From: the human T2T-CHM13v2.0 reference genome, Homo sapiens
Direction: 5' to 3' (one strand)
Length of the DNA stretch: 64,000 nucleotides
Assembly: GCF_009914755.1 (NCBI RefSeq)
Contig: NC_060933.1
Shown: positions 5,494 through 54,750 of the stretch, in pieces
How positions within the stretch are numbered: the stretch's first letter is position 1
How the letters are laid out: every line of letters begins with the position of its first letter
The notes under the pieces: generated by a model
What the model was told of the DNA's origin: nothing
What the model saw: only the letters and a program-made list of their open reading frames with translations
Database searches by the model: none
Program-made: the position numbers and the translations under genes

Positions 5494-7391
5494 TGTATTA
5501 GTCCATTTTCATGTTGCTGAGAAAGACATACCTAAGACTGGGTAATTTATAAAGAAAAAGAGGTTTAAGGGACTCACAATTCTGTGTGGCTGGGGAGGCT
5601 TCACAATCATGGTGGAAGGTGAAAGGCATGTCTTATATGGTGGCAGGCAAGAGAGAATGAGAACCAAGTGAAAGGGGTTTCCCCTTATAAAAGCTTCAGA
5701 TCTTGTGAGACTTATTCACTACCTTGAGAATAGTATGGGGGAACTGCCCCTATGATTCAATTATCTCCCACCAGTTACCTCTCACAACACTTGGGAATTA
5801 TAGGAGCTACAATTCAAGATGAGATTTGGGTGGGGACACAGTCAAACTGTATCATTCTTTCCCTGACTCCTCCCAAATCTCATGTCCTCACATTTCAAAA
5901 CCAGTCATGCCTTCTCAACAGTCCCCCAAAGTCTTAGCTCATTTCAGCATTAACTCAAAAGTTCACTGTCCAAAGTCTCATCTGAGACAAGGCAAGTCCC
6001 TTCGGCCTATGAGCCTTTAAAATCAAAAGCAAGTTAGTTACTTCCTAGATATAATTGGAGTACAGGCAATGGGTAAATACAGCCATTCCAAATTGGAGAA
6101 ACTGGCCAAAACTAAGGGGCCACAGGCCCTATGCAATTCCAAAATCCAGCAGGGCAATCAAATCTTAAAACTCCAAAATAATTTTCTTTTACCCCATGTC
6201 TCACATTCAGGTTATGCAGATGCAAGTGGTGGGTTCCCACGGTCTTGGTCTGCTCTGCCCCTGTGGCTTTGCAGGGTACAGCCCCTCTCCTGGCCACTTT
6301 CACAGGCTGGTGTTGAGTGTCCATGGCTTTTCCAGGTGTGCGGCGCAAGCTATCAGTGGATTTACCATTCTGGGGTCTGGAGGATGATGGCCCTCTTCTC
6401 ACAACTTCATTAGGCAGTGCCCCAGCGGGAACTCTGTGTAGGGGCTTCAACTGCACACTTCCATTCTGCACTGCCCTAGGAGAGGTTCTCCATGAGGCCC
6501 TGCCCCTACAGCAAACTCCTGCCTGGACATCTAGGCATTTCCATACATCCTCTGAAATCAAGGCAAAGGTTCCCAAACCTCAGTTGTTGACTTCTGTGCA
6601 CCTGCATATTCAACACCACATGGAAGCTGCCAAGGCTTGGGGCTTGCACCCTCTGAAGCCATGGCCTGAGCTGTACTTTGGTCCATTTTAGTCATGGCTA
6701 GGGCATCTCAGATGCAGGGCATCCAGCCCCTAGGCTTCACACATCAGGGGGACCTGGGCCTGGCCCAAGAAACCATTTTTTCCTCCTAGGCCTCCAGGCC
6801 TGTGATGGGAGGAATTGCAGTGAAGGTTTCTGACATGCCCTGGAGATATTTTCCCCATTGTCTTGGTGATTAACATTTGGCTCCTCGATACTTATATGGG
6901 TAATAAGGAACTGGCTTGAATTTCTCCTCAGAAAATAGTTTTTTCCTTTTTGTTGCATTGTCAGGCTGCAAATTTTTTGAACCTTTATGTTCTGCTTCCC
7001 CTTTAAACTTAAGTTCCAATTCCAAACCATATCTTTGTGAATGAATAAAACTGGATGCTTTTAATAATACGGAAGTCACCTCTTGAACGTTTTGCTGCTT
7101 AGAAATTTCTTCCACCAGATGGCCTAAATCATCTCTCTCAAGTTCAAAGTTCTATAAATATCTAGGGCAGGGGAAAAATGCTGCAAGTCTCTTTGCTGAA
7201 ACATAGCAAGAGTCACCTTTACTCTAGTTCCCAACAAGTTTTCAATCTCCATCTGAGACTACCTCAACCTGGACTTCATTGTCCATATGAGCATTTTGGT
7301 CAAAACCATTCAACAAGCCTCAAATTCCAAACATTCCCACATTCTATAATTCAAAATGAGATTTGGACGGGGACACAGCCAAATGCTATCA
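5494..7391 (-). mobile_element. THE1 (MaLR) element: one intact LTR (5494-5853), internal region, and a largely deleted second LTR
   Basis: Termini TGTATTAGTCC...GCTATCA. TSD CTGCC(5489-93)/CTGCT(7392-96). The internal sequence is a reverse-complement homolog of 28623-30188. Confidence 0.92.
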
Positions 7392-16794: not shown

Positions 16795-17982
16795 AAATAG
16801 ACTTTATTTTTAAGAGCAGTTTTAGGCTCCCAGCAAAACACAGAGAAAATATGGAGAATTCCCATATACCCACCTATACAACTCACCTGCTCTCAGCATC
16901 TTGTACAAGTGTGCTACTTTTGTCACAGTGAATAAACACATTGACACATCATTATCACCCAAAGTTGATCGTTTACATTTGGGATTCACTCTTAGCGTTG
17001 TTCATTCTGAGTTTTGATAAACATGTAATCACAGGTATCCACTATTAAAGTATATGGAAAGTTTCATTGACTTAAAAATCCTCTGCGCTCAACCTATTCA
17101 TCTCTCCCTGTCCTCTAACTCCTGGAAACCACTGAATTTTTTACTGTCTCCATGGTTTAAACTTTTCCAATATGCCATATAGTTAGAATCATACAGTATG
17201 AAACCTTTATACATTGGCATTTTTAACTTAGATGTATGCATTTATTTCCTCCATGTATTTCATGGCTTGGTAGCATACTTTTTAAAGAAACAATAAATAA
17301 GATCCCATTTTCTGGATGCACACATTTTATTATGCATTAACTTACTGAAAGACATCTTGGTTGCTTCCAAGTTGTGGCAAATATGAGTAAAGCCATATAA
17401 ACATCCATGAGTAGATTTTTTTGGAGCTATACTTTTCAACTTATTTAAATAAATACCAATAAGTATAATTACTTATTTGCTACAAATATGTTTAATTTTG
17501 TAATAAACTGCCAGACTATCTTTGTAAGTGATTGTACCATTTTTGCTTTCCCATCAGCAATGAATAAGAATTCCTGTTGCTTCACATCCTCACCAGTACT
17601 TAGTGTTGTCAAAGTTCTGGATCTTGACCATTCTAATATTCATAGGTATATAGTGGTATCTCATTGTTGTTTTAGTTTGCAATCCCCTAATGCCATATGA
17701 TGTTTAATATCTTTTCATATCATGACTTGATGTCTGTATATCTTCTTTGATTATACCTACACCTGTTGCTATTATTATTTTGAACCAACTATTATTTATT
17801 AGATCAATTGAAAACAGGAAAAAATATTTTATTTTACCTTTGCTTATTTCTTCTCTAATATTCATCCTTCGGATATGAACTTCACATAGATCTGACTTTA
17901 TAACCTATATCATTTTCTTTCTCTCTGACACAATTCTTTTTAACATTTCTTGCAAGATAGGTCAACAAATTTCCTGATTTTT
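16795..17982 (-). mobile_element. L1MC, left half (3' end plus ORF1-region piece); continues at 30801
   Basis: L1MC 3' end TTTTTAAGAGCAGTTTTAGGCTCCCAGCAAAA. Ends in TTCTTGCAAGATAGGTCAACAAATTTCCTGATTTTT. Confidence 0.8.
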
Positions 17983-17989
17983 AAAAAGA

Positions 17990-18135
17990 GTTTTCCATTT
18001 ATTTCTTGTGGTAAAATCCACATGACATAAAATTTACTGTCTTAAATTTTTAAGTGTACTTAAAATGATACTGATGGTAATTATGTTCACATTGTTGGGC
18101 AACCATCACCACCACTTACCTCCAGAATTCTTTTA
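17990..18135 (-). mobile_element. Short L1MB-like 3' end
   Basis: TGTGGTAAAATCCACATGACATAAAATTTAC...CACATTGTTGGGCAACCATCACCACC. Confidence 0.7.
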
Positions 18136-18241
18136 AACAAAATATTTTTGCAAACACAAATATGAAATGGGGACCAACATTTATCTTCAAAACATTGAGA
18201 CCTGGTATAGGATACAACCTCCACTGAGACTGGCTTATGCA

Positions 18242-18366
18242 GCTCTTGGATGATGTTGGAGGTTGTTAAATGGTCTTCTAATATGGATAGAAAACAGTTT
18301 TAGCAGGCTCTTGCATGATGTTGGAGGTTGTTAAATTCTAATATGGATGAAAAACAGTCTTAGCAG
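18242..18366. repeat. Two-copy tandem duplication (65 + 60 bp)
   Basis: GCTCTTG(G/C)ATGATGTTGGAGGTTGTTAAA[TGGTC]TTCTAATATGGAT..AAAACAGT(T/C)TTAGCAG occurs twice, head to tail. Confidence 0.9.
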
Positions 18367-18436
18367 AAGAATGATCTCATTCCTGGTGCTGTTTCTCAAA
18401 GAGAGGAATTCAGATGTGAATTCCTGAGGCTAGGTA

Positions 18437-18740
18437 GTTTATTCTAAATATAAATTTATTGGCTTATGGCTCGGGAGACTGTGAAGTCCAAGATTGAGGG
18501 GCCACCATTTTGTGAGGTCCTTCTTGCTGTGTCATAACATAGTGGAAGGGCAAAGAGAGGGCAAGAGGGGGGCAAACCCATTATCTTGATAATGAATCCA
18601 CTCTTGTGTTAGTCCATTCACAAGGACAGAGTCCTCATGACTTAAACACATCTTAAAGATTCCATCTCCCAATACCACAACCAATGGCAATTAAATTTCA
18701 ACATGAATTTTGGACATGATATACATTTAAACCATAACAT
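18437..18740 (-). mobile_element. MaLR LTR fragment (MLT1A/MST-like)
   Basis: GAAGTCCAAGATTGAGGGGCC...AAATTTCAACATGAATTTTGG...AAACCATAACA. Confidence 0.7.
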
Positions 18741-18917
18741 ATACCACAAAGGTGAGCCCCTGAAATAAAAGTGGAGAGGAGACCATCAGCCTATCTCTTC
18801 TCTTTGAGGAGACGAGGAATCTCCTAAGAGGAATCTCAGTTGGGGGTTTAAAGGTGGTCTATGCCTTGTGAAGATAAGAAGAGAGCTAGAGAGAAACTTG
18901 GACAGATAACCTCAATG

Positions 18918-19120
18918 CAGGGCCACAAAACATGCATACCCTGCACAAAAGTGCCCGGGTTGTGAACATGAATTGGAGATGAAATTGTACCCTAGAACCA
19001 TGCACTCTGGCTTGGGTGTGATTCATTCTGGAGAAAGAAGCATAGCAACTTTTGGAAACTGATGTGCCTAGAAGGGGCACCTCTTTGTAATTTGTTAGCC
19101 CGGAGGCCACATATGCTTAC
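18918..19120 (+). mobile_element. MER91A-like (hAT-Tip100) relic
   Basis: CTGCACAAAAGTGCCCGG, ACCATGCACTCTGGC and GAAGGGGCACCTCTTTGTAATTTG match recalled MER91A blocks in order. Confidence 0.55.
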
Positions 19121-20539
19121 ATGAGGAAACCTCTTTTTCAATGCAAAGAGCCACTCATAAGCAAGCAACAGTAGTTCCAACTATTAAAATGAAGATTTCA
19201 TAGCTTTAAAGTGAAAATAACCTAAAGCAATGATTCACAATTACACTCCGCGTTTTCCTCCCTTTGTTACCCTGCGGTATTCAGTAAAGACCCTTTATAC
19301 ATGACAACATTGTCTCCATTACAGCATGCGCTATCTATTCTTAGATTAATGTGTTAAAGTGATATCAGCACCCATTTCTCCAAAAGATAAACTTGGTAGC
19401 TAGCAGCTGTAATCAGCAAAAATCCACCAAGAAATTGTGCCCTTGGAATTGTCTATAAACCACCTGATCCAGTCACATTCCTGGAACTAAACTGGAAGGT
19501 GTGGGCAAAATGGTGAGCAGATGAAGTATGTGTAGTTTTAGAAGGGAATTGTTTACAGCAGCTCAAAGAGAACTTCCAGAGGAAGATAAAAATATCTCAA
19601 CAGAAAAGAAAATTTGAATATCATGAAAAACCTAAGAAAACTCTAAAACTCTTTCCAGACAGCTCTTTTGACTGAAAAAATATGAATATGTTTTGTAATT
19701 ATTGCAGAAGTCTATGTCATAAAGCTACATAAAATTAAATCATGATTTATCTTACAAAATCTTAATGTTAACTCTAACCTCTTTAAAGGAAGACTTTCTT
19801 TGTTTTACCTAAAATATTAAAAAATTACTGATAAAGAAAATGATAATCTGCATGGTATACAAGTATCACTGACCCCCCCCCACAAATAAAACAGAAAATG
19901 AAAAATTCCCAAGCATTTTAATAGATACAGTGCAAAACCAAATTTTCTATATCTTCAAATATTACTAACTTTACAGGATTAGTTATTATAATTTGAGTGG
20001 ATGCTAATACATAAAGAGTCTGATTTCTACCACCAAATATTTTAATGAAGTTGTTGATATAATTTTCAAATAAGGAGTTTTATTATTTCCTATTGCTACC
20101 TACTCAACCTTTTGAGAGAAATATTTTCTCATTGTTTATTTGATTAATATTACTGGCTAGTGAAAATTTACAACATTTTAACCATAGTTTCCCTGATGTG
20201 GGTGAAGACATAGCCCTATAGAAAGGGTAGCAAGAACACATGTATTTTGACACAAATTCTGTAAGAGAATTTTACAAGGGTAGGACTATTAATATATCTT
20301 TAGCAACTTTATTAGTTTTGAAGTGCTAAAATCATGGATGTAGAGAACTATATGAGCAAATAAAAATTTGTTCAAAAGAAATTTTGTTAAAATTCAGAAT
20401 TATAAAGTATTGCACTAACTTACTAATATCCCTACAATGTGATCTTCCTTTCACCTCACAAATGATATTTGTGATGAAAAGTTTGGTAGTGATAAGAATT
20501 ATAAAGTAAAGGTAAGAAAGGCTAATGAGATAGATAAAT

Positions 20540-20700
20540 ACATGCAGGGGTAGTTTTTAGGTGGTCAGGGAAGTAAGTAGTAAGTTGCCTGTGAGAGCTA
20601 AAATATGATGGGGAAGGCTCAAGTCATGATGTGTACAAGAGCATTCCAGGCAGAGAACCTGCAAGTGCAGTGTCTGAAGCTAAAATATGAAGATATTCTT
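20540..20700 (-). mobile_element. L2 fragment
   Basis: GGTGGTCAGGGAAG...AAGAGCATTCCAGGCAGAG. Confidence 0.55.
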
Positions 20701-20959
20701 CAGGAGTTTTTTGATTAGGGAAAGATTGAAAGATTTGACAAAAATGAAAAAGTCCATTTGTTATTCTCCATCAACAGAAAAAATATGCATTTTTATATTT
20801 CTAGTTTAATAAAATGTCTTCATCAAAACTAAAACCAAAATAAACTAGGAATTTTCCCATATATGTAGAATGAGAATTTAGGCTATTCACATTTGTTTCT
20901 AAGAGATATTTACCCTATAGTGAGAGCAATGATTAACAACATTATTTCCAATTAATTAA

Positions 20960-21150
20960 AATAAGTTTTGGAAACATTCTACATATTACATTATATTCCA
21001 ACAGCCCAACAGGCTAGTATTATCTTCATTCATAGATTAGGAAAACTGAGTCTCAGAAAAAAATCCATAACTTGTTTAAGATCAGATGATCAAAAACATT
21101 AAAATCTAGTCCTGAACCTGAGTCTTCTGACTCAAAATCCAGGAACTTTG
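20960..21150 (-). mobile_element. MIR
   Basis: TATTATCTTCATTCATAGATTAGGAAAACTGAGTCTCAGA...TCTTCTGACTCAAAATCC. Confidence 0.7.
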
Positions 21151-23915
21151 TCATCTGATGAAACTAACACTGAAACACTACTGAAAGTAGTTTAGTCTAC
21201 CTTTAATGTTTCAGATATCCCTAGAAAGATCATATATGGATACTTCAGAATGTCACACTTTGTAAAGCATAGTGGCAAGGTTTCTGCATCTTAAAGAAGG
21301 TGGTTGGGAATATGTCATTATCTGCTAAGTATTTCTCATCTATTTATTTAACAAATATTTTCCTTTTTTGGCAAATATAAATTATACATATTTAAGGTGT
21401 ACAACATGATGTTTGGATATACATACACATTGTGAAATGACTACCACTATCACACAAATTCACATATATTCATCATCTCACATAGTTACTGTGTATGTGT
21501 GTATGTGTTCAGTGAGAATACTTAAAATTTACTCTCAGCAAATTTTGAGTATACAATATATCATTATTAACTAGAGTCACCATGATGTACATTATATCCC
21601 TAGAATTTACTCATCCTTTGTAATTGAAACTTTGAATTCTTTGAACAAACAACATATGTGTTTCCCACACCTCCAAGACCCTGGCAATCACCATTATAGT
21701 CTCTGCTTTTACAGATTTGAGTTTTTGAGATTTCATGTAAAAGAACATACAGTATTCCTGTTTCTGTGTGTGGCTAATTTACTTAGCATAATACCTTCCA
21801 AACAAAATTATGAATATTGTGTTGAATGGCAGGATTTCCTTCTTTTTAAAGATTGAATAATGTTCTAGCCTCTGTGTTTCTGTTTGTGTATTTATGTATG
21901 TATGCGTGTGTGTATGTATATATGTAAATGTATTTATTATATTTTCTTTATCAATTCATCAGGCAATAAAAACTTAGGTTGTTTCTATGTCTTGGTTATT
22001 GTGAATAACATGACAATGAGCATAGAAATGCATGTATCTCTTTGAGGTCTTGATTTCATTTCCTTTAGCTGTATAACCAGAAGTGAAATCACTGGATCAT
22101 ATTGTAGTTCTATCTTTAATTTTCTGAGAAACTTCAACACTGTTTTCCAAAATGGCTATACTGATTTACATTCCTACCAACAATGTACAAGAATTCACTC
22201 TTCTGCACATCCTTGCCAGTACTTGTTCTCTTTTCTATTTCTGGTAATAGCCGTTCTAACAGATATGCAGTGATATTTTATTGTGTTTTTGATTTGCATT
22301 TTCCTGGTGGTTAGTGATGTTGAGTACCTTCTCATCTACCTGTTGGCCATTTGTATATCTTCTTTTGAGGAATGTCTCTACAATTTCTTCTGCTCATTTT
22401 AACATCAGGTCATTTGTTTTCTTGCTATTAAGTTGTTTGGGTTCTTTATATATTTTAAATATAAATATTAACCCCTTATCAGATATATGGTTTGCAAATA
22501 TATTCTCCCATTCCATAGGTTCTCTTTACTCTGTGGATTGTTTCCTTTGTTGTACAGAATCTTTTTAGTTTGATGCACTCCCTTGGTCTATTTTGTTTTT
22601 GTTGCCTGTGCTTTTGGGATCATATTCAAAAACTCGTTGCTCAGACCAACGTCAGGAAGCTTTTACCTTATGTTTTCTTCTAGTAGTTTTACAGTTTCAC
22701 GTCTTACATTTAAGCGTTTAGTCCATTTTGAATTTATTTTTGTATATGCTGTGAGATAAGCATCTAATTTTATTCTTTTGCTTGTGGATATCCAGTTTTC
22801 TCCACATAATATATTGAAGAGACTGTCCTCTTTCCCCTTTGTGTGTTCTTGCCATTTTTATCAAAGTTCAATTGGCCTTAAAAGTGTGGATTTATTTCTG
22901 GGCTTTCTGTTTTGTTTCATAAGTTTATGTGTCTGTTTTTATGCCAGTGCCATACTGTTTGGATTATAATAACATTATATTATATTTTGAAATCAGGTAG
23001 ATTAATGCTTTCAGTTATTTTTCTCAAAATTGTTTTGGGTATTCAAAGTCTTTTATGGTTTCATATGGATTTTAGGATATTTCTATTTCCATAAAAATGT
23101 CATTAGAATTTTATAGAAATTACATTGAATCTGAAGAAGGTCATATAGATATTTTAACAATATTAATTTTCCAATCTATGAACACAGGATTTTTTTCATG
23201 TGTTTGGGTCTCTTAAAGTTTTCTTCATCAATATTTTATAGCTTTCAGTGTACAAAGCTTTTACCTCCTTGTTTAAATTCATTTCAAAATATTTTTGATG
23301 CTGTATCATTTTATTTTTTATTTCTTAATTTTTTATTTTTAATTTTGGTAGGTATGTAGTAGGTATATAAATTCATGATGTACATGAGATATTTTGATAC
23401 AGGCATACAATTCATAATAATCACATAAAGGTGAATGAGGTATCCATCATCTGAAGCATGTATCCTTTCTATGTGTTACAAATACTCTAATAAAACTCTT
23501 TTAGTTATTTTAATGTGCACAATAAATTACTGTTCACTGTAGTCATCCTGTTGTGTTATCAAATACTAGATTTTATTCATTCAATGTAACTATGTTTTTG
23601 TATCCATTAGCCAACCCTGTGTCCATCCCTCCAGCCCAACTACCCTTCCCGACCTCTGGTAACCATCATTCTACTTTCTCTGTCCATGGGTTCAATTGTT
23701 TTATTTTTTAGCTCCCACAAATAAAGGAGAACACGTGAAGTTTGTCTTTCTGTGCCTGGCTTATTTCATTTAACATAGTGTCCTGCATCTATTATGTTGC
23801 AAATGACAGAATCTCATTCTTTTTTTATAAGTGAATAGTACTCCATTAAATATGTACCATATTTTCTTTATCCATTCATCTATTGATAGACACTTAGGTT
23901 GTTTTCAAATCTTGG

Positions 23916-24266
23916 TGATACGGTTTGGCTGTGTCTCCACCCAAATTTCATCTTTAATTGTAGCTCCCATAATTTCCATATGTCGTGGGAGGTAATTTAA
24001 TCATGGGGTGGGGCTTTCCTCTGCTGTTCTCATGATAGTGAATAAGTCTCACAAGATCTGATGATTTTGTAAAGGTGAGTTCCCCTACACAAGCTCTCTT
24101 GCCTGCTGCCATGTAAGATGTGCCTTTTCTCCTCATATGCCTTCCACCATGATTGTGAGGCCTCCCCAGCCATGTGGAACTGTGAGTCCAATAAACCTCT
24201 TTTTCTTTAATAAATTACCCAGTTTTGAGTATATCTTTATTAGCAGTGTGAGAACAGACTAATACT
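23916..24266 (+). mobile_element. THE1/MSTA solo LTR
   Basis: TGATACGGTTTGGCTGTGTC...CAGACTAATACT. TSD CTTGG/ATTGG. Confidence 0.9.
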
Positions 24267-24701
24267 ATTGGCTATTGTGAATAATGCTAGAGTAAACATG
24301 TGAGTGCAGACATTACTTCAATATAGTGATTTCCTTTCTTGTAGGCATATAGTTGGTAGTGGGATTGCTGGATCATATGGTACTTCTATTTTCAGTTTTT
24401 TTGATGAACCTCCAAACTGTTCTCCATAGCAGTTATATTAATTTACATTCCCACCAACAGAGGACCAGAGTTCCTTTTCCTCCACATCCTTGTTAGCATT
24501 TGTTATTGTCTGTCTTTTGTATAAAAGCCATTTTAACTGGGGTGAGATGATATGTATTGTAGTTTTGATCTACATTTGTTTGATGGTCAGTAATCTTGAG
24601 CACCTTTCCAAATACGTGTTTGCCGTTTGTCTTTTTTTGAGAAATGGCAGACCTTTTGCTCATCATTTTATTAGATTTTTTTTTGCTGTTGAGTTGTTTG
24701 A

Positions 24702-25067
<366 letters not shown>

Positions 25068-26317
25068 CAATATTTTTTCTTATTCTTTCGGCTGTCTCTT
25101 CACTTTGTTGATTGTTTCCTTTGCTGTACGGAAGCTTTTTAGGTTGATGTGATCCCGTTTGTCCATTTTTCCTTTGGTTGCCTGTGTTTGTGGGATATTA
25201 ATCGAGAAATCATTCCACAGACCAATGTCCTGGAGAGTTTCCCCAATGTCTTCTTTTAGTAGTTTCAAGTTTGAGGTCTTAGATTTAAGTCTTTAATCTA
25301 TTTTGATTTGATGTTTGTATATAGCAAGAGAGAGAGAGGGAAATAGGAGTCTAGTTTTATTCTTCTGCATATGGATATCATTTTTTCCTTGCCTATACAT
25401 AGGCAAGAAAAAAATACGTATATTTGTTGTTTGTTTTTTGATTTGAGGTTACCACAAATCTTGCAAGTATCTTGTAATCCATTATTTTAAAGTGATGACA
25501 ATTTAATACAGATATCATAAACAGACTAGTAAGGGAAAAGAAAACTAATAAAAACTCTACACTTTAATGCTATTTTAGATTGACAAGTTTTCTTAATTTC
25601 TTTTTCAGAAACTTCATCGTTAGTGTATAGAAATACACTGATTTTTATACATTGATTCTGTATCCTGCAATTTTACTGAATTATTTTTTAGTTCTAACAG
25701 TTTTTTTGGTCGAGTCTTTAGCTTATCTTAATATATAAGATCATGTGATCTGCAAACAGAGAAAATTTTACTTCTTCCTTTTTTATTTGGATGCCTTTTA
25801 ACTATTTCTTGACTAATTGCTCTGGCTGGCCATTCCAGTACTATGTTAAATAGAAGTGGTGAAAGTGGGTATCCTTGTCTTGTTCATGATTTTAGGGAAA
25901 AAGCTTTCAGCCCTTCATCATTGAGTATTATGTTAACTGTTGGCATGTCATATTTGGTCTTTTTTATATTGAGATAAAACACTTGTATACTGATTTGTTG
26001 AGCATTTTTTTTTTATCATGAAATGATGTTGAATTTTTAAACATGCTTTTTCTGCATTTATTATAATGTCTTATGCATTTTACCCTTTATTCTGTTAACA
26101 TGGTGTATCATGTTTATAGATTTGCATATTTATAAACCATTCTTTTACCTCAGGGATAAGTCCCACTTGATCGTGTCATATAAACTTGAATGGGCTGCTG
26201 GATTCAGTTTGCTAGTATTTTGTTGAAGACTTTTAAATCTGTGTTCCTCAGGGATTGGCCTATACTTTTCTTTTCTTGTAGTGTCCTTGTCTGGCTTTGG
26301 TATCAAGGTAATGCTGG

Positions 26318-26745
26318 TATATTAGTCAGGGTTCTCTAGAGGGACAGAACTAATAGGATATATATAAGTTTATTAAGGAACTCACATGATCACAAGGTCT
26401 CACAATAGGCCATTTGCAAGCTGGGGAGAAGGAAGCCAGTTTGAGTTTCAAAACTGAAGAACTCGGAGTTTGATGTTTGAGGGCAGGAAGCATCCAGCAT
26501 GGGAGAAAAATGTAGGCTGGGAGGCTAAGCCAGTCTAGCCTTTTCATGTTTTTCTGCCTCCTTTATATCCTGGCCACACTGGCAGCTGATTAGATGGTAC
26601 CCACCCAGATTAAGGGTGGGTCTGCCTTTCCCAGCCCACTAACTCAAATGTTGATTATTTTGGCAACACCCTCAGAGAAACAGCCAGGATCAATACTTTG
26701 CATCCTTCAGTCCAATCGAGTTGACACTCAGTATTAACCATCACA
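26318..26745 (-). mobile_element. MLT2A (HERV-L) solo LTR
   Basis: TATTAGTCAGGGTTCTCTAGAGGGACAGAACTAATAGG...ATTAACCATCACA. Perfect TSD GCTGG at 26313-17 and 26746-50. Confidence 0.92.
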
Positions 26746-28256
26746 GCTGGTTTCATAAAATGAGCCTTGAAGTATTTCATCCTCTTCAAAGAGACTGAGA
26801 AGGAATGGTATTAACTCTTCTTTAAATATTTGGTGGAATTTGACAGTTATCGTATTGCTGCCTATTGCTCATTTCAATTCTGTTTATTTTTGCTTTATAT
26901 ATATATGTTCCAATGTTGAGTCCCTATATATTTACAACTGTTAGATCCTCCTGATGAATTTACACTCTTTATCATGACCTTTTGTGACCTTTTGTCTTGT
27001 GAAATGTTTTGACCCAGTCTATTGTGTGTTATATAAGTTTAGCCTCCCCTGCTCTCTTTCATTTGTATGAGATATCTCTTTCCATCCCTTTATTTTTAGC
27101 CTATGTGTCTTTTTACAGGTAAAGTGAGTCTCTTGTTGGCAACAGATAGTTGTGCCTTCTTTTAAAAATTCATTTAGCTACTCTATGTCTTTTGATTGGA
27201 TAATTTAATCTATTTATATTTAAAATGATTATTAATTGATCAGAACCTACTATTGCCACTACAACTGTTTTCTTACCATTTTATAATTTCTCTGTTTCTT
27301 TCTTTGTTTCTTGCTATCTTCTCTGGTGATTTGATAATTTTTTATTAGCATGGTTTTATTCCTGTTTTACGTATCCACTAGAGTTTTTTTTATTATAAGG
27401 TTTACATAAGACATTTTGTAATTATAACAGTTTATTATAAGCTAGTCACAATTTAACTGTAATGAAATACAAAAGCTCTACCCTTTTACTTCTCCTGTCT
27501 TTCATGTTTTATGTTATTGATATCATAATTTACATCATTTCATAGTTTGCATTCATAAAGAAATTATTGCAGCGATAGTTTTTAAAAACAGTTTTCTTTT
27601 TTATCTTTTATATCTCCTATTTTCTTTTTTGTCTCTCGGACATTTGCCATAGATGAACCCATTTCACTCTTTTTGTTCCCTCTTTTGGAGGAAGTCTTAT
27701 GATTCTGCACCTTTTCTTGATCCCACAAAGCCAGGCCAGGTGCTGAGAGGCTCTCATTTATTTTCCATAGTGCAATCCCAAGTGTTGAAGGTTAAGCACT
27801 TATACCAATCCAGCAGAGTTGAGTCAGCTGTCTGTGTGTGCTCAAGCATGACATGCACTGTTTCACATGTTGTCCATGAAGACATACACAGTGTGTTGAC
27901 TATAGGAGAGAAGGGGAGGATGTGACTGGAACAGGAGATATACTTAGGCTTGTTGGGGGAGACCTCAGGTGGTGTGTTCTATGAGGACTGTGGGCAAGTG
28001 TCTTGGTAGAGTCCACAATTAGCTAATAAAAAACTCAGGCCTTTGTTAAGATCCACACCCTGATTGTTTTGAGTCTTTGTCCCTTTTCCTGCTACTAACT
28101 GTCCCAGAGTATTCAGTCATTATGATCTCCTCAGTCTTCAGAGTGGGTCAAGCAAGAAGTGAACCTTTTGGGTACTGTTGCTCATGGTTGAGGAAGGCAA
28201 GTGAGTCCTCACCATGCTCTCACTTTCTTCTGTGGGAAAAATGGGCCAACGAATTC

Positions 28257-30550
28257 TGATATGATTTGCCTGTGTCCCCACCGAAATCTCATCTTGAATT
28301 GTAACTCCCACAATTCCCACGTGTTGTGGGAGGAACCCGGTGGGGGGTGATTGAGTTATGAGGGCAGGTCTTTCCTGCACTGTTCTTGTGAGTGAGTGAG
28401 TCTCATGGGATCTGATGGCTTTAAAAACAAGAGTTTGCCTTCACAAGCTCTCTTTGCCTGCTGCCATCCATGTAAGATGTGACTAGCTCCTCCTTGCCTT
28501 CTACCATGATTGTGAGGCTTCCTGAGCCATGAAGAACTATAAGTCCAGTTAAACCTCTTTCTTTTGTAAATTGCTCAGTCTCGGATATGTCTTTATCAGC
28601 AGCATGAACACAGATTAATACAGTAATTTGGTACTGTCAGAGTGGGGTGCCACTGAAAAGATACACAAAAATGTGGAAGTGACTTTGGAACTGGGTAACA
28701 GGCAGAGATTGGAACAGTTTGGAGGGATAAGAGGAAGGCAGGAAAATGTGGGGAAGTTTGGAACTCCCTAGAGACTTGTTGAATGGCTTTGAATGAAACA
28801 CTGATAATGATATGGACAATGAAATCCAGGCTGAGGTGGTCTCAGATGGAGATGAGAAACTTGTTGGGATCTGGAGCAAGGTGTTTCTTATTATGTTTTA
28901 GCAAAGAGACTGGTGGCACTTTGCCCCTGCCCTAAAGATTTGTGGAACTTTGAACTTGAGGGATGATTTAGGGTATCTGACGGAAGAAATTTCTAAGCGG
29001 CAAAGCATTCAAGAGGTGACTTGGGTGCTGTTAAAAGCATTCAGTTTTATAAGGGAAGCAGAGCATAAATATTCAGAAAATTTGCAGCCTGACAATCCAG
29101 TAGAAAAGAAAATCCCATTTTCTGAGGAGAAATTCAAGCCAGCTGCAGAAATTTGCATAAATAACGAGTAATGTTAATCCACAAGACAATGGGGAAAATG
29201 TCTCCAGAGCCTCTTAGAAATCTTCACAGCAGTCCCACCCATCACAGTCCCGGAGGCCTAAGAGGAAAAAATAGTTTCATGGGCCAGGCTCAGGGTCCTC
29301 ATGCTGTCTGCAGTCTAGGGACTTTGTTCCCTTTGTCCCAGCCACTCCAGCTGTGACTAAAAGGGGCCAAGATACAACTCAAGCTGTGGCTTCAGAGGGT
29401 GCAACCGCAGGCCTTGGCAGCTTTCACATGGTGTTGAGCCTGCAGGTGCACAGAAGTAAGAATTGAGGTTTGGGAACCTCCACCTAGATTTCAGAGGATG
29501 TATGGAAACACCTGGATGTCCAGGCAGAAGTTTGCTACAGGAGTGGGGCTCTCATGGAAAACCTCCGCTGGGGCAGTGCAGAACAGAAATGTGGGGTGGG
29601 AGCCCCCACCCAGAGTGCCCCCTGGGGCACTACCTAGTGGAAATGTGAAGAGGGCCACCATCCTCAGGACCTCAGAATGGTAGATCCACTGGCAGCTTGC
29701 ACTGGAAAAGGTGCAGATACTCAATGCCAGCCCATGAAAGCAGCCAGGAGGGGAACTATACCCTGCAAAGCCACAGGGACAGAGCTGTCCAAGACCATGG
29801 GAACCTACCTCTTGCATCAGTGTGACCTGGATGTGAGACACGGAGTAAAAGGAGATCACTTTGAAGCTTTAATATTTGATTGCCCATTGGATTTTGGACT
29901 TGCATGGGGCCTGCAGCCTCTTCATTTTGGCCAATTTCTCCCATTTGGAATGGCTGTATTGACCCAATGCCTGTATCCCCATTGGATCTAGGAAGTAACT
30001 AACTTGCTTTTGATTTTATAGCCTCATAGGCAGAAGGGACTTGACTTGTCTCAGATGAGACTATGGACTTTGGACTGTGGACTTTTGAGTTAACAGTGAA
30101 ATGAGTTAAGACTTTGGGGGACTGTTGGGAAGGCATGATTGGTTTTGAAATGTGAGGACATGATATTCTGGAGGGGCCAGGGGCACAATGATATCGTTTG
30201 GTTGTGTCCCACCCAAATTTCTTCTTGAATTATAACTCCCACAATTCCCACATGTCATGGGAGAAACCTGGTGGGAGGTGATTGAATTATGGGGGCAAGT
30301 ATTTTCTGTGCTGGTCTTGTGATAGTGAATGAGTCTCATGAGATCTGATGGCTTTAAAAAGAAGAAAAACAAGTTTTCTGTCTGCCTGCTGCCATCCATG
30401 TAACATGTGATTTGCTTCTCCTTGCATTCTGCCATGATTGTGAGGCTTTCCCAGCCAGCTAGAACTATAAGTCCAATTAAACCTCTTACTTTTACAAATT
30501 GCTCAGTCTCAGGTATGTCTTAATCAGCAGTGTGAAAATGGATTAATACA
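28257..30550 (+). mobile_element. Full-length THE1 (THE1B/C-like): LTR 28257-28622, internal region, LTR 30189-30550
   Basis: Two homologous LTRs (TGATAT...TAATACA) with a purine tract before the 3' LTR. Perfect TSD AATTC at 28252-56 and 30551-55. Confidence 0.95.
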
Positions 30551-30800
30551 AATTCTCTCTTGGCACTGAGCTGTGATGCCTGGGGGAAGGAGTAATGCAA
30601 GCAAACTGAAACTATTCTTCTTACTCTATTAAATGTATTCATTCTTGAAAATTTGCTTTAACAGGGTGCTGGGATATCTCTCTAGATGTTTAGGATCCCA
30701 CAAAGATACTACCCTCTGTGGATTGTTATCAATATTGATGTTTTTACAGGGGAAAGAAGATAGAGACTCCTACTCTGCTATTCTGTTCATGTCACTCTGG

Positions 30801-32515
30801 ATTCCCCAATTTTTACTTCTCTGAGAAAGTCTTTATTTCTTCTTTACATTTGAAGAAATTTTTTTTGAGAATACAGAATTCTAAGTTTGTTTCTTTTTTC
30901 TCTCAACAATTTAAACATTTCACTCCACTCTCCTCTAGCTTGCATGTTTTCAAAGAAGAAGTTGGGTGTAATTCTTATCTTTGTTACTCTATGGGAAAGT
31001 TAGTTATTTCTTCAGGATTCTTTTAATATTTTTATTTATGTTTGAGTTTCCAAAGTTTGAATATGATATGAGTGGATGTAGTTTTTTGTTGTTATTTATC
31101 TTGCTTAGTTTTTTTTTCTCTCAAGTTCTTGGATCTGTGGTTTATAGTTTGATGCCATATTGGGGGAAATGCTCATTTATTAGTGCTTCAAATATTGCTT
31201 CTATTACCTTCACTGTTTCTTATCATTCTGGCATTCCCATAACATGTAAGTTACATCTTTTGTAGTTGTTGCACAGTTCTTGGATAGTCTGTTCCATTTC
31301 TTTTAAGACTTTTCTCTTTGTTTCATAGTTTTGGAAGTTTCTATCTATGTATTTCCAAGCGAAACTCAGATACTCTTTCCTCAGTTATATCTTCTACTAA
31401 TAAGCCCATCAAAGGTATTTTTCATTTTTGTTACAATGGTTTTTTTGTACACTCTAGCATTTTTAATATTCTTTTTTATAATTCTCATCTCTCTACTTGC
31501 ATTATCTATTAGATTTTGTATGTTGTCTACTTCTTCTACTAGATTTCATTGCATGGTAATCATACTTCTTTTAAATTCATGATGTGATAATTCTAACATC
31601 ACTGCTGTATTTGTGTCTGGTTCTCACGTTGTTCTATCTCTTCAAACTGTGTTTTTGCATTTTAGTATGTCTTGTAACTTTTCCTTGAAAGGTGGACATG
31701 ATGTACTGGATAAAAGGAACTGCAGTCACTAGGCCTTTAGTGATGTGGTAGTAAAGTGTGAGGTAGGGGAATTGCTCTGCAGTCCTATGATTAGGTTTCA
31801 GATTTTTATAGAGTCTGTGCTAATAGGCTGTGAACTTCACAAATGCTTCTCAGTTTGTTCTTTTTTCACCTCATTAGATGGTACAGGATGGCCATAGGGG
31901 ACTGGAGTGGGGTAAATCTCTGCCTCCACAGGAAAAGCTAGAATAGCTGCAGTTGAATATTTTTCTTCTTTCAGGTGAATCAGGCTCTGATAAAAACCCA
32001 ATAGGTTGGGCTCTGGTAAAATAATTTTTTTGAAGGCAGGCTTTGTTAACAGGAACAGGTTGCCATGGTGCATTTCAAAATGATTTCTTTCCTCCTCCTC
32101 TTGCAGGAAGCCAAAGTAGATTTTTCTCTGATCTTCACTGTGAGAACCTGGTAGAGGTCTTGGAGGTAGAACTCACAAAACTGTTAGGGTTGTCCTATAA
32201 ATGGGTCCACCTGGAGTTTTCATCTCTCATACTTGTCTATTCTGAGCCTCCAGCAATTTGTGAACTACAGTTCAGCTTTTCCTGCATTGGTACTGGTTCC
32301 TATGAAGGTGGGTTTCTGCTCTGGTAAGTTGTGATTCTCTGTATTCATCAACTTGTCTCTCCAATTTTGGGGGCAGTGGTGTGAACTGTGACTTCACTTT
32401 TCTAACACACCTAAGAAGAATTGTTGATTTTTCAATTTGTTCTGAATTTTTTTTCTTGTTAGGATAGAATGCTGACTTCTATGTTCCTGACATGCCAGAT
32501 AAGAAACTGTAGGCC
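30801..32515 (-). mobile_element. L1MC, right half (ORF1 region and 5'UTR)
   Basis: ATTCCCCAATTTTTACTTCTCTGAGAAAGTCTTTATTTCT continues the recalled L1MC consensus where 17982 stops. Ends near GACATGCCAGATAAGAAAC. Confidence 0.78.
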
Positions 32516-39683: not shown

Positions 39684-41090
39684 CTAGTTTACAGTCCCAC
39701 CAACAGTGTAAAAGTGTTCCTATTTCTCCACATCCTCTCCAGCACCTGTTGTTTCCTGACTTTTTAATGATCGCCATTCTACTGGTGTGAGATGGTATCT
39801 CATTGTGGTTTTGATTTGCATTTCTCTGATGGCCAGTGATGATGAGCATTTTTTCATGTGTCTTTTGGCTGCATAAATGTCTTCTTTTGAGAAGTGTCTG
39901 TTCATATCCTTTGCCCACTTTTTGATGGGGTTGTTTGATTTTTTTCTTGTAAATTTGTTTGAGTTCATTATAATTCTGGATATTAGCCCTTTGTCAGATG
40001 AGTAGACTGCAAAAATTTTCTCCCATTCTGTAGGTGGCCTGTTCACTCTGATGGTAGTTTCTTTTGCTGTGCAGAAGCTCTTTAGTTTAATTAGATCCCA
40101 TTTGTCAATTTTGGCTTTTGTTGCCGTTGCTTTTGGTGTTTTAGTCATGAAGTCCTTGCCCATGCCTATGTCCTGAATGGTATTGCCTAGGTTTTCTTCT
40201 AGAGATTTCATGGTTTTAGATCTAACATTTAAGTCTTTAATCCATCTTGAATGAATTTTTGTATAAGGTGTAAGGAAGGGATCCAGTTTCAGCTTTCTAC
40301 ATATGGCTAGCCAGTTTTCCCAGCACCATTTATTAAATAGGGAATCCTTTCCCTATTTCTTGTTTTTGTCAGGTTTGTCAAAGATCAGATAGTTGTAGAT
40401 ATGCGGCATTATTTCTGAGGGCTCTGTTCTGTTCCATTGGTCTATATCTCTGTTTTGGTACCAGTACCATGCTGTTTTGGTTACTGTAGCCTTGTAGTAT
40501 AGTTTGAAGTCAGGTAGCATGATGCGATTCCTCAGGGATCTAGAACTAGAAATACCATTTGACCCAGCCATCCCATTACTGGGTATATACCCAAAGGATT
40601 ATAAAACATGCTGCTATAAAGACACATGCACATGTATGTTTATTACGGCACCATTCACAATAGCAAAGACTTGGAACCAACCCATATGTCCAACAATGAT
40701 AGACTGGATTAAGAAAATGTGGCACATATATACCATGGAATACTATGCAGCCATAAAAATGATGAGTTCATGTCCTTTGTAGGGACATGGATGAAGCTGG
40801 AAACCATCATTCTCAGCAAACTGTCACTAGGACAAAAAAACCAAACACTGCATGTTCTCACTCATAGGTGGGAATTGAAGAATGAGAACACATGGACACA
40901 TGAAGGGGAACATCACACACCAGGGCCTTTTGTGGGGAGGGGGAAGGGGGGAGGGATAGCATTAGGAGATATACCTAATGTTAAATGACGAGTTAATGGG
41001 TGCAGCACACCAACATGGCACATGTATACATATGTAACAAACCTGCACATTGTGCACATGTACCCTAAAACTTAAAGTGTAATTAAAAAG
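39684..41090 (+). mobile_element. L1PA4/5-like element with twin-priming 5' inversion
   Basis: 39684-40525 is antisense ORF2; 40524-41090 is the sense 3' end. TSD core ATATAAATCT at 39676-85 and 41094-103. Confidence 0.94.
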
Positions 41091-49426: not shown

Positions 49427-50863
49427 CCTTCTTTTCTTCTGTTTTCCTGTCCTTCTTCCATGACTCAGCAATTCTCTACTTGGTGGAGTGTCTGGCAATG
49501 CCCTGTTCTTCACCTGTGTGGTGGTTACACAGGAATTAGCTTTATAATTACTGGCAGTTATACTAATTATAAACCATATAACTGTGTGTTTCATGTACTG
49601 ATCTGCATACATAGTTAATAAAAATTAAAAAAATTAAAAGCAAAGTTATATAGTCCATATGTTTCCATCTAGAATGGATTTAAATTTAATGAAACATTTG
49701 TATGTATCATTATTTCTGATTCTCAGAAATTTATAAAAGTTTCAGAGTATGGAACTTTCTATTTGTGTTCCAATTTATTTATGAATAAGTCTCTAATAGA
49801 CAATGCATATAAGTGATTTATTCCACTTAAAATTTATTTTTTATTAGACATGCATTGAATTATATAAAGAACATTAAGGATGAGAATTGCCTGTTTTATT
49901 TTTTGACTCTTCTGGCATAAGTAATCAAGTCAATTTTAGTAAAATTTCTAAAGGACAAGGTAATTTCAAATACTTTCAAGTACTTTTCTTCTGTTGTCTG
50001 TAGATTACACATAGAGGTGTGTAATTAAAAACTTAATATAGCCTCTAGTAGATGAAACATATCTTGGATAAACTTTTGCTCTTTTATCCTTTAGAACAGA
50101 TGTGTTTATCACATATTTCTCAACAGAATATAATTTTGTTTAGGTCATTCCGCCAACAGAAAAGAAACAACATGCCTATCCCCACCACACCCTAATTTAA
50201 TTATGGATTTATTGCTTTATGGATATTGATATTCATGGATTTCAAATTCAAATATGAACAGAGTATATTTTGTAGAAAAACTAATATTTTAAATGGTGAA
50301 ATTTAAAAACCCATAATAACATCATTACATTATTTGTAATATCCAGTGCGAAGACAATATACTATATATAGTTATTTTATTTCCCATCTGATAGGGTATT
50401 TTTGCACAAATGTAATTCTACCTGTAAATAAAATACTGATTTATAGTCATTGGAATGTGAGACTATAGAAGGTTTTCCCCCAATTTTTTTAAATTAATTC
50501 TCCTTGTTAAAAGGGAAAGTAAAGCCCATAAATAAGTTAAAAAACGTTTGACTCAGAATGTAATCTTTTGATCATAATACAACAATAGATGTTTGTTTCT
50601 TTTGTTGTAGAATAATTAAGGTTTAGTTTATTTTATTTTTTATTTTATTTATTTATTTATTTTTTTAATTTATTATTATTATACTTTAAGTTTTAGGATA
50701 CATGTGCACAATGTGCAAGTTAGTTACATATGTATACATGTGCCATGACTCATCATCTAGCATTAGGTATATCTCCCAATGCTATCCCTCCCCCGCTCCC
50801 TCCACCCCACAACAGTGCCCAGAGTGTGATGTTCCCTTTCCTGTGTCCATGTGTTCTCATTGT

Positions 50864-54702
<3,839 letters not shown>

Positions 54703-54750
54703 TTATTTTGCTCGTTAGTTGATGCAGTTTCTACCTAGTCTCAATGGTCT

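What the first reader, a model, noticed from the sequence alone, without database searches (positions are those of the whole stretch)
17969..30814. Probable ancient L1MA-mediated 3' transduction of ~3.4 kb of genomic DNA into an L1MC
Seen: an L1MC stops at 17982 and resumes at 30801. The breakpoints carry a 14-bp degenerate duplication, ATTTCCTGATTTTT (17969-82) / ATTCCCCAATTTTT (30801-14). Its TG/CA difference fits opposite-strand decay of one CpG, and it ends in TTTT/A like an L1 endonuclease site. On minus, the insert reads: L1MA 5' end flush with the TSD (30800), L1MA body to its tail (21362), ~3.2 kb of non-L1 DNA containing MIR, L2 and MER91 relics, then an L1MB 3' end (18135-17990). Established: L1s read through their weak poly(A) signal and mobilise 3' flanks, and MIR/L2 predate L1MA activity. 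Inference: a long read-through RNA ended at the downstream L1MB poly(A) site and was retrotransposed, so 18.1-21.4 kb came from another locus. L1MC continuity rests on my recall of the consensus.
Basis: partly seen in the sequence, partly recalled or inferred. Interest (0 to 1): 0.8.

Follow-up and report, generated by a model that had tools for sequence, protein, structure and literature searches.

The report
Stacked retrocopies at one L1 nick site
An old L1 repeat on human chromosome 9 was hit repeatedly at one cutting site, and one insert is an RNA-made copy of about 2.9 kb of chromosome 7, which makes it a tidy but ordinary piece of repeat archaeology.

Summary
The breakpoints are real. 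Three uninterrupted genomic copies of the same L1 family join the two flanks, and in one of them both 14-mers map to the same 14 bases.

Window 17991-21362 has one long paralog, chr7:3499191-3502064 (70.7% identity, K2P 0.38). The window copy stops about 15 nt after an AATAAA, in the middle of a target-site duplication that is complete on chr7. So chr7 is the source and the copy went through RNA.

The "9.4 kb L1MA" is not one element. It is:
- a 5'-complete, younger L1 (23334-30800) that carries a nested LTR element, a solo LTR and an Alu;
- an older 5'-truncated L1 (21363-~23310) that lacks its last ~20 nt, including the poly(A) signal.

A third copy of the 14-mer sits between the two L1s.

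chr7 has no L1 next to the source segment. Its boundary also resembles the L1MC target: 18 of 19 bases match, with a 2-nt gap.

I slightly favour three separate insertions at one nick site (0.42) over a true 3' transduction from a lost source L1 (0.36). This is a known kind of event and of modest interest.

The parts
30815..31312 (-).
   Evidence: tblastn of the window's young-L1 ORF1 gives 30862-31164 and 31163-31312. There are 39 non-self genomic hits at 72-77% identity.
30801..30814 (-). Copy 1 of the 14-nt target-site duplication (minus strand AAAAATTGGGGAAT), directly before the 5' end of L1-B
   Evidence: It maps to the same 14 nt as copy 4 in an uninterrupted chr5 copy.
23334..30800 (-). 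L1-B: a 5'-complete, younger L1 of about 4.5 kb of L1 sequence with internal deletions. It is interrupted by an LTR-internal-LTR element (28257-30550, + strand), a solo LTR (23916-24265) and an Alu (24754-25076).
   Evidence: ORF2 pieces lie at 23708-27259. The 5' end equals the family 5' end in at least 8 of 11 loci. Pieces 30551-30800 and 27260-28256 are colinear in a chrX copy. The nested element is shown. The 3' UTR matches 39 relatives at 78-82%.
28257..30550 (+). Nested LTR-internal-LTR retroelement. It looks THE1/MST-like, but that name is recalled and not tested. The LTRs are at 28257-28622 and 30189-30550, and the flanking 5-bp duplication is AATTC.
   Evidence: The LTRs are 81.9% identical over 370 columns. 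The element is 76.7% identical to a second copy at 5494-7343. The ends and the duplication were read.
23320..23333 (-). Copy 2 of the 14-mer (AAAAATTAAGAAAT), between the A-rich tail of L1-B and the 5' end of L1-A
   Evidence: It matches copy 4 at 12 of 14 and copy 1 at 11 of 14. In 100000 shuffles of the 41-nt A-rich junction, 1.4% reach 12 to either copy and 0.33% reach both values. Caveat: it matches an ORF2 word of this L1 family about equally well, for example in L074 and in L1-B itself.
21363..23310 (-). L1-A: an older, 5'-truncated L1 (last third of ORF2 plus the 3' UTR) that lacks its last ~20 nt and its poly(A) signal
   Evidence: tblastn gives 21973-23294. By my reading of the printed tails, 27 of 29 related loci continue about 20 nt further, through an AATAAA, before their A-tail, and 2 of 29 end early. 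Own-branch K2P is 0.16-0.17. The 39 relatives match at 71-78%.
21349..21362 (-). Junction between L1-A and the chr7-derived DNA (minus strand AAAAAAGGAAAATA). It is either a short A-tail plus chr7 sequence or a decayed fourth copy of the 14-mer.
   Evidence: Alignment to chr7. The similarity between the chr7 boundary and the L1MC target was tested.
17983..21362 (-). Retrocopy of chr7:3499191-~3502080 (3.38 kb here, about 2.9 kb on chr7). It carries two window-only additions: an LTR at about 18418-18745 and a ~65-nt tandem duplication at 18242-18366.
   Evidence: Searches show four colinear blocks. Substitution-only identity is 70.7% over 2139 columns, K2P 0.38. It is the only retrocopy of that chr7 stretch in the genome.
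17991..18135 (-). 5'-truncated L1 3' end inside the retrocopy. It supplies the AATAAA about 15 nt before the end of homology.
   Evidence: 39 non-self hits. The chr7 alignment shows the fragment's own duplication complete on chr7 and cut short in the window.
17969..17982 (-). Copy 4 of the 14-nt duplication (AAAAATCAGGAAAT)
17764..17968 (-). Downstream continuation of the host L1 (end of ORF1 and the inter-ORF spacer)
   Evidence: 39 non-self hits, most ending at query 214-222, which is window ~17769-17761. Reading frame across the junction.

Best explanation
One L1 endonuclease site (+ strand TTTTT/A) inside an old L1 was used three times by target-primed reverse transcription. Each use duplicated the same 14 nt.

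1. Oldest event. A polyadenylated RNA from chr7:3499191-~3502080 was copied in. The RNA ended about 15 nt after the AATAAA of a resident L1 3' fragment. Its 5' end was fixed where the cDNA could pair with the target, so no L1 came with it. It is a processed retrocopy or 'orphan' type of insert.
2. A 5'-truncated L1 (L1-A) then entered the upstream copy of the duplication.
3. Later a 5'-complete L1 (L1-B) entered the new upstream copy.

Afterwards an LTR element, a solo LTR, an Alu, another LTR and a small tandem duplication were added, and L1-A lost its last ~20 nt and its tail.

Shown:
- the chr7 origin, its direction and its end at a poly(A) site;
- that there are two L1s of different age;
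- the continuity of the host L1.

Inferred:
- that L1-A arrived separately from the chr7 copy;
- the order of events;
- the pairing step at the 5' junction.

The core shared with the next rival has about 0.85 confidence. That core is an RNA-made copy of chr7 plus a separate, later L1-B at the same site.
For: 1. Source and direction. There is a single long paralog on chr7, colinear over 17991-21362. The window copy ends inside the second copy of a duplication that is complete on chr7, about 15 nt after AATAAA.
2. No L1 lies next to the source. There is no match to the window's L1 bodies in the 10 kb upstream of chr7:3499191. tblastn finds only a non-significant ORF1 hit there (E = 0.83).
3. The chr7 boundary resembles the target. 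AAATCAGAAAATAATTGTTGA matches the L1MC target AAATCAGGAAAT--TTGTTGA at 18 of 19 aligned bases, with a 2-nt gap. Only 9 of 30000 random 40x40-nt window pairs and 30 of 20000 AT-rich pairs score as high. Pairing of cDNA with the target at 5' junctions of truncated inserts is described in PMC2912911 (passages read).
4. L1-B is a separate and later event. It has its own ORF2 C-terminus, 3' UTR and A-rich tail. Its relatives match at 78-82% against 71-78% for L1-A. Its identity to a young L1 is 70-71% against 67%. A 14-mer copy lies behind its tail.
5. Ages rise from 5' to 3', as expected for stacking. L1-B holds an LTR pair with 18% divergence. L1-A has K2P 0.16-0.17. The chr7 copy has K2P 0.38 between the two copies, so about 0.19 per lineage if the split is even.
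6. Double insertion at one target site, leaving the duplication in the junction, is described for other elements in 10.1101/158386 (passages). Precise parallel insertions in mammals are described in PMC10531181 (passages).
Against: - A third exact re-use of one nick site is costly a priori. Precise parallel insertions run at 0.01-0.04% in primates (PMC10531181).
- The supposed fourth 14-mer copy at 21349-21362 is poor. It needs a 2-nt deletion and a 1-nt insertion relative to copy 4. It aligns to chr7 without gaps just as well.
- L1-A has almost no A-tail (6 A) and lacks its 3' end, so a deletion must be assumed.
- L1-A's age (0.16-0.17) is not clearly different from the retrocopy's (~0.19), as co-insertion would predict.
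- The similarity in point 3 was noticed by eye before it was tested. Over a 600 x 590 nt search it is reached by 10 of 200 shuffles.
- Copy 2 could be ORF2 sequence of L1-A rather than a duplication.
- L1-B's age rests on top-hit identities only. Relatives could not be fetched.
Confidence: 0.42

Rival explanations
1. Classical 3' transduction, but by L1-A and not by the 9.4-kb 'L1MA'. An active L1 of L1-A's family once sat just upstream of chr7:3499191. Its transcript read through to the next poly(A) signal, in the L1 3' fragment 2.9 kb downstream. The RNA was inserted 5'-truncated into the host L1. The source L1 was never fixed, or was later deleted, on chr7. L1-B entered the upstream duplication copy later.
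For: - L1-A lies directly against the chr7-derived DNA in the same orientation.
- L1-A lacks its own AATAAA, while 27 of 29 relatives have one. That would force read-through if the loss happened at the source.
- The ages of L1-A (0.16-0.17) and of the segment (~0.19 per lineage) are alike.
- Only two hits of the site are needed.
- Sources absent from the reference genome are documented. An orphan transduction from a non-reference L1 is listed in PMC4859970 (table row and reference read).
Against: - No L1 lies beside the source on chr7 today.
- No sibling offspring carries the chr7 boundary region. One search gave 3 hits in all: the query itself, the window, and one unrelated hit to the upstream flank.
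- The 18-of-19 resemblance between the chr7 boundary and the L1MC target is left to chance (9 of 30000 and 30 of 20000).
- The chr7 boundary is not a typical TTTT/A site. It reads TTTT/C or ATTT/C on the nicked strand (read by eye).
- A deletion of L1-A's end and tail must still be assumed.
Confidence: 0.36
2. A single event in which one full-length L1, with its 5' end at 30800, read through everything down to 17990. A 12.8-kb RNA was inserted with one duplication, 17969-82 and 30801-14.
For: - The outer 14-mers are a true duplication of host-L1 sequence.
- The L1 starting at 30800 is 5'-complete.
- It needs only one insertion.
Against: - The stretch contains two L1s, each with its own ORF2 C-terminus and 3' UTR.
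- The 5'-complete one looks younger than the other and than the chr7 copy.
- The source would have had to carry both L1s, although they differ in age. Yet chr7 has neither.
- A 14-mer copy lies between the two L1s (p = 0.003-0.014).
- About 2.9 kb of the stretch is later LTR and Alu insertion.
Confidence: 0.04
3. Chimeric retrocopy. During one round of reverse transcription the enzyme copied the chr7 RNA and then switched to an L1-A RNA, or the two RNAs were ligated beforehand, as proposed for U6/L1 chimeras.
For: - It explains an L1 fused to chr7 sequence without any L1 at the chr7 locus.
- It explains the near absence of an A-tail at the junction.
- Chimeras of L1 with other RNAs are catalogued in PMC13174262 (abstract and section 10 read).
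Against: - In the catalogued chimeras the foreign RNA sits 5' of a truncated L1, and the U6 part is usually full-length up to the junction (PMC13174262, section 10). Here the L1 is the 5' partner and lacks its last ~20 nt.
- It does not explain why the chr7 boundary resembles the target.
Confidence: 0.08
4. DNA-level event. A piece of chr7 DNA was captured into a break in the host L1 without an RNA step.
For: The short similarity between the chr7 boundary and the target could serve microhomology-mediated repair.
Against: - The copy ends about 15 nt after an AATAAA, in the middle of a duplication that is intact on chr7.
- It abuts an A-run and a 14-nt target duplication at a TTTTT/A site.
- These are the marks of polyadenylated RNA and L1 endonuclease.
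Confidence: 0.03

Closest known systems
L1 3' transduction (read-through of the L1 poly(A) signal; the first papers are recalled, not read here)
   Same: An L1 3' region is followed in the same orientation by unique DNA from another locus. That DNA ends at a downstream poly(A) signal, and the whole is bounded by a target-site duplication at a TTTT/A site.
   Different: The source locus has no L1. The adjoining L1 lacks its own terminal ~20 nt. A rival reading without co-mobilisation fits at least as well.
Orphan transduction or processed retrocopy made in trans by L1 (orphan transduction from a non-reference L1: listed in PMC4859970)
   Same: It is a copy of non-L1 RNA with a poly(A)-site end, a duplication and an endonuclease site, with no L1 sequence of its own event in the favoured reading.
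   Different: It is very old (K2P 0.38 to its source). The RNA is intergenic or intronic sequence and not a spliced mRNA. The 5' junction sits at an unusually long (19-21 nt) similarity to the target.
Double insertion at one target site (10.1101/158386, passages) and precise parallel insertions in mammals (PMC10531181, passages)
   Same: Different elements stand head to tail, separated by a copy of the same target-site duplication.
   Different: Here there are two or three different inserts of clearly different age in one lineage, stacked in age order. This is not a dimer of one element and not the same site hit in two species.
Microhomology-guided 5' attachment of truncated L1 inserts (PMC2912911, passages; Zingler et al. 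2005 seen only in its reference list)
   Same: The 5' end of the insert lies where the copied RNA resembles the upstream target end.
   Different: Reported microhomologies are a few bases long. Here it would be 18 of 19 bases with a 2-nt bulge, reaching 7 nt beyond the 14-nt duplication.

Membership tests
L1 3' transduction | L1 3' end directly upstream of the foreign segment, in the same orientation | tested here: met
   L1-A ends at 21363 and chr7 homology starts at 21362. However, L1-A lacks its last ~20 nt and its AATAAA.
L1 3' transduction | The foreign segment ends at a downstream poly(A) signal followed by an A-run | tested here: met
   AATAAA lies about 15 nt before the end of homology. 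It is followed by AAAAA, which is also the start of the duplication.
L1 3' transduction | At the source locus the same segment lies directly 3' of an L1 | tested here: not met
   There is no L1 in the 10 kb upstream of chr7:3499191 (blastn, tblastn). A lost or unfixed source cannot be excluded.
L1 3' transduction | One target-site duplication encloses the L1 plus the segment and nothing else | tested here: inconclusive
   Copies of the 14-mer lie at 23320-33 and 17969-82, which would fit. A possible decayed copy at 21349-62 would split the pair.
L1-mediated retrocopy (processed or orphan type) | Unique source paralog, copy ends at a poly(A) site, target duplication at a TTTT/A site | tested here: met
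   for the source. for the site. for the duplication.
L1-mediated retrocopy (processed or orphan type) | The 5' end of the copy is joined directly to the upstream duplication copy | tested here: inconclusive
   The junction 21349-62 could be a decayed duplication or an A-tail plus chr7 sequence. The chr7 boundary resembles the target.
Repeated insertion at one target site | A copy of the duplication is kept in the junction between the two inserts | tested here: met
   23320-33 matches at 12 of 14 and 11 of 14, and 0.33-1.4% of composition-keeping shuffles do as well. Caveat: it resembles an ORF2 word equally well.
Repeated insertion at one target site | The inserts differ in age | tested here: met
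   Relatives match at 78-82% against 71-78%. Identity to a young L1 is 70-71% against 67%. No outgroup or species comparison was possible.
Repeated insertion at one target site | Species exist with one insert but not the other | not testable with these tools
   No other mammalian genome is held.
RT template-switch or ligation chimera (U6/L1 type) | The 5' partner is complete up to its own 3' end at the junction | tested here: not met
   L1-A lacks the ~20 nt that 27 of 29 relatives carry. The feature is taken from PMC13174262, section 10.

The most novel reading that the evidence does not exclude
A self-renewing L1 landing pad. Every insertion at this TTTTT/A site rebuilds the site in the upstream copy of its duplication, so later inserts stack 5' of earlier ones in strict age order. 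The 5' end of the first insert was set by unusually long (about 19-nt) pairing between its cDNA and the target. If this is general, stacks that share one duplication would give a built-in relative clock for old repeats. They would also show that target sequence can dictate where a retrocopy is truncated.
Probability: 0.35. Interest if true: 0.45.

Novelty: new member of a known kind. Interest (0 to 1): 0.3.

Why it matters
- It gives a worked, checkable case of a very old RNA-mediated movement of about 2.9 kb of unique DNA, from chr7 to chr9, with the source still recognisable. The age is roughly that of the placental radiation, if a neutral rate near 2e-9 per site per year is assumed; that rate is recalled.
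- It shows how a plausible single-event reading, one long L1 with one duplication, can hide two or three events at one nick site. That matters for automated calls of transductions and chimeric insertions.
- No gene or functional element is annotated in the window, so no functional consequence is expected.

Tried and rejected
- Pfam scan of three-frame translations of the L1 regions. I mapped L1 coordinates by tblastn with the ORFs of the window's own young L1 instead.
- Idea that chr7 carries a longer relic of the host-L1 ORF1 region at the boundary, which would make the 21-nt similarity true homology. Rejected: permissive local alignments of chr7 3498600-3499600 against the rebuilt empty L1MC score no better than shuffles (30, 87 and 39 of 100 shuffles reach the observed scores).
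- Idea that chr9:24109916-24110664, 70 kb from the window, is a third copy of the segment. Rejected: only about 0.6 kb matches (window 20548-20856 and 20933-21139), so it is a shared old repeat.
- Independent L1-A insertion with a duplication of its own, different from the 14-mer. None was seen at its two ends.
- Relative-rate test of window against chr7 using repeat relatives as outgroup. Not feasible: in 337 kb of held sequence only the window-only LTR had 3 or more relatives.
- TRF missed the 65-nt duplication. The repeat finder found it.
- Searches for print on re-use of L1 duplications gave the general precedents cited. Among the listed titles and the passages read, I saw no description of this locus or of age-ordered stacks.

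Full report
OBSERVATION

On the minus strand, which is the sense strand of every L1 discussed here, they read AAAAATTGGGGAAT (30814->30801) and AAAAATCAGGAAAT (17982->17969).

To test whether the host L1 is continuous across them, I searched the genome with each flank (31100->30801 and 17982->17683). Each search listed 39 non-self hits. Three genomic copies occur in both lists, and the two matches abut in each:
- chr5: the matches overlap by exactly 14 nt (173055686-173055699), so both 14-mers map to the same bases;
- chr2: offset 4 nt;
- chr10: offset 8 nt.

A tblastn match of ORF1 from the window's young L1 also runs through the rebuilt empty site in one frame. The + strand reads TTTTT/A at the nick. 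So the interruption and the duplication are real. The degenerate pattern alone is not rare in the window: 4 matches against 2.11 expected, and 18 of 100 shuffles reach 4.

THE FOREIGN SEGMENT HAS A SOURCE

A whole-genome search with 18140-21350 gave one long paralog, on chr7 (40 of 1796 candidates were scored). Pairwise work shows four colinear blocks:

| Window | chr7 |
|---|---|
| 19093-21362 | 3501395-3499191 |
| 18848-19025 | 3501572-3501402 |
| 18787-18839 | 3501665-3501616 |
| 17991-18311 | 3502064-3501761 |

Substitution-only identity is 70.7% over 2139 columns, K2P 0.38.

The window copy has two additions that chr7 lacks. One is an LTR at about 18418-18745, MLT1-like by recall. It was the only part with several relatives in the held sequence. 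The other is a ~65-nt tandem duplication at 18242-18366.

A search with the chr7 boundary region found only the query itself, the window and one unrelated hit to the upstream flank. There are therefore no sibling copies.

DIRECTION AND RNA ORIGIN

On chr7 the 146-bp L1 3' fragment is flanked by its own ~16-nt duplication, with both copies present. In the window the upstream copy is present. Homology stops inside the downstream copy, about 15 nt after the AATAAA of that fragment. It then runs into AAAAA plus the host-L1 duplication. The fragment belongs to a high-copy L1 3' end family (39 non-self hits). This is the signature of a polyadenylated RNA copied in at an L1 endonuclease site. chr7 is the source and the window holds the copy.

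THE '9.4 KB L1MA' IS NOT ONE ELEMENT

tblastn with the ORFs of the window's young L1 finds two sets of ORF2 C-terminal sequence on the minus strand.

L1-A (21363-~23310) holds the last third of ORF2 and a 3' UTR.

L1-B has its own A-rich tail at about 23334-23345, a 3' UTR, ORF2 pieces from 23708 to 27259, and upstream sequence to 30800. L1-B is interrupted by:
- an Alu at 24754-25076;
- a solo LTR at 23916-24265;
- a 2.3-kb LTR-internal-LTR element at 28257-30550, whose LTRs are 81.9% identical and which is flanked by AATTC.

The pieces 30551-30800 and 27260-28256 are colinear in a chrX copy. L1-B's start at 30800 is the family's own 5' end. At least 8 of 11 related loci begin with the same motif after unrelated flanks.

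THE TWO L1S DIFFER IN AGE

| Measure | L1-B | L1-A |
|---|---|---|
| 3' UTR identity to 39 relatives | 78-82% | 71-78% |
| DNA identity to the window's young L1 | 70-71% | 67% |
| Own-branch K2P | not obtainable | 0.16-0.17 |

The own-branch figure for L1-A is the mean distance to relatives minus half the mean distance among them, from 29 and 19 relatives. L1-B's relatives could not be fetched. If the 0.38 between the two copies is split evenly, the chr7-derived segment has about 0.19 on the window lineage. L1-B therefore looks like a later arrival.

A THIRD COPY OF THE 14-MER

Between L1-B's tail and L1-A's first aligned bases lies AAAAATTAAGAAAT (23333->23320). It matches the other two copies at 12 of 14 and 11 of 14, and all differences are transitions. 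Shuffles that keep the A-rich composition of the 41-nt junction reach this in 0.33-1.4% of 100000 trials. The caveat is that this L1 family has a similar word in ORF2, nearly in register. However, the 12 nt that follow do not match ORF2. The simplest reading is that L1-B entered the upstream duplication copy of an older insert and duplicated it again.

DID L1-A BRING THE CHR7 DNA?

For co-insertion:
- L1-A abuts the segment.
- Their ages are similar.
- L1-A lacks the last ~20 nt, including AATAAA, that 27 of 29 relatives carry (my count of the printed tails; 2 of 29 end early).

Against co-insertion:
- chr7 has no L1 within 10 kb upstream of the boundary.
- The chr7 boundary is not a typical nick site.
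- The chr7 sequence at the boundary resembles the host-L1 target. AAATCAGAAAATAATTGTTGA matches AAATCAGGAAAT--TTGTTGA at 18 of 19 aligned bases, with a 2-nt gap.

Only 9 of 30000 random pairs of 40-nt windows, and 30 of 20000 AT-rich pairs, score as high. Over a 600 x 590 nt search, 10 of 200 shuffles do. I noticed this similarity by eye before testing it. No longer homology to the host L1 exists on chr7.

Such a similarity is what one expects if the cDNA of the chr7 RNA paired with the upstream target end and the 5' junction formed there. That would mean the segment arrived without an L1. Pairing at the 5' junctions of truncated inserts is described in PMC2912911 (passages).

Weighing the cost of a third hit at one site against the cost of a chance similarity plus a lost source leaves the two readings nearly level. 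Precise parallel insertions occur at 0.01-0.04% in primates (PMC10531181, passages). I put separate insertion at 0.42 and true 3' transduction at 0.36.

COMPARISON WITH WHAT IS KNOWN

All components are known kinds:
- 3' transduction and orphan transduction (PMC4859970, table and reference list);
- retrocopies made in trans;
- double insertion at one target site with the duplication kept in the junction (10.1101/158386, passages);
- precise parallel insertions.

What is unusual is the combination: two or three inserts of different age stacked at one site in age order, and a recognisable source for a copy this old. My literature searches showed no description of this locus among the listed titles and the passages read. 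They do not prove that none exists.

LIMITS

No repeat library was available.
- No other mammalian genome could be consulted, so the order of events rests on divergence alone.
- The age in years rests on a recalled neutral rate.

VERDICT

This is a new member of known kinds, of modest interest.

Noticed in passing
window 17431-17764: Homology of the host L1 to its relatives stops at about 17764 (most hits end at query 214-222). Next comes an ORF2 C-terminal fragment at 17431-17751. This is either a large internal deletion of the host L1 or a different L1.
   Followed up: no
window 5494-7343 and 28257-30550: Two copies of the same LTR-internal-LTR element lie in opposite orientation, 76.7% identical over 1884 columns. 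Each sits inside an L1. A related solo LTR lies at 23916-24265.
   Followed up: partly
window 18242-18366: A tandem duplication with a unit of about 60-65 nt, whose copies are 90-97% identical. It is present in the window copy and single on chr7. It is much younger than the retrocopy itself.
   Followed up: partly
L003 (chr9:24109916-24110664), 70 kb upstream of the window: This locus shares about 0.6 kb with window 20548-20856 and 20933-21139 at 74-77%. That is higher than the identity of the same stretch to its chr7 source (about 70%). It is probably another copy of an old repeat (MIR/L2-like by eye), but the high identity is unexplained.
   Followed up: partly
window 39685-40878, 2-628 and 62727-63163: Three L1 3' parts show an inverted arrangement. 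The last part of ORF2 is on the + strand, and the part just before it lies next to it on the minus strand. This is the pattern expected of 5'-inverted (twin-primed) L1 insertions.
   Followed up: no
window 50620-56612: A young, nearly full-length L1 on the minus strand. It has long open stretches of 634, 393, 264 and 237 aa, and it is broken by a few stops or frameshifts.
   Followed up: no
window 23306-23319: Twelve A-rich bases (AAAAAATAAAAT on the minus strand) lie between the middle 14-mer and the first bases of L1-A that align to relatives. They match neither ORF2 nor the duplication.
   Followed up: no
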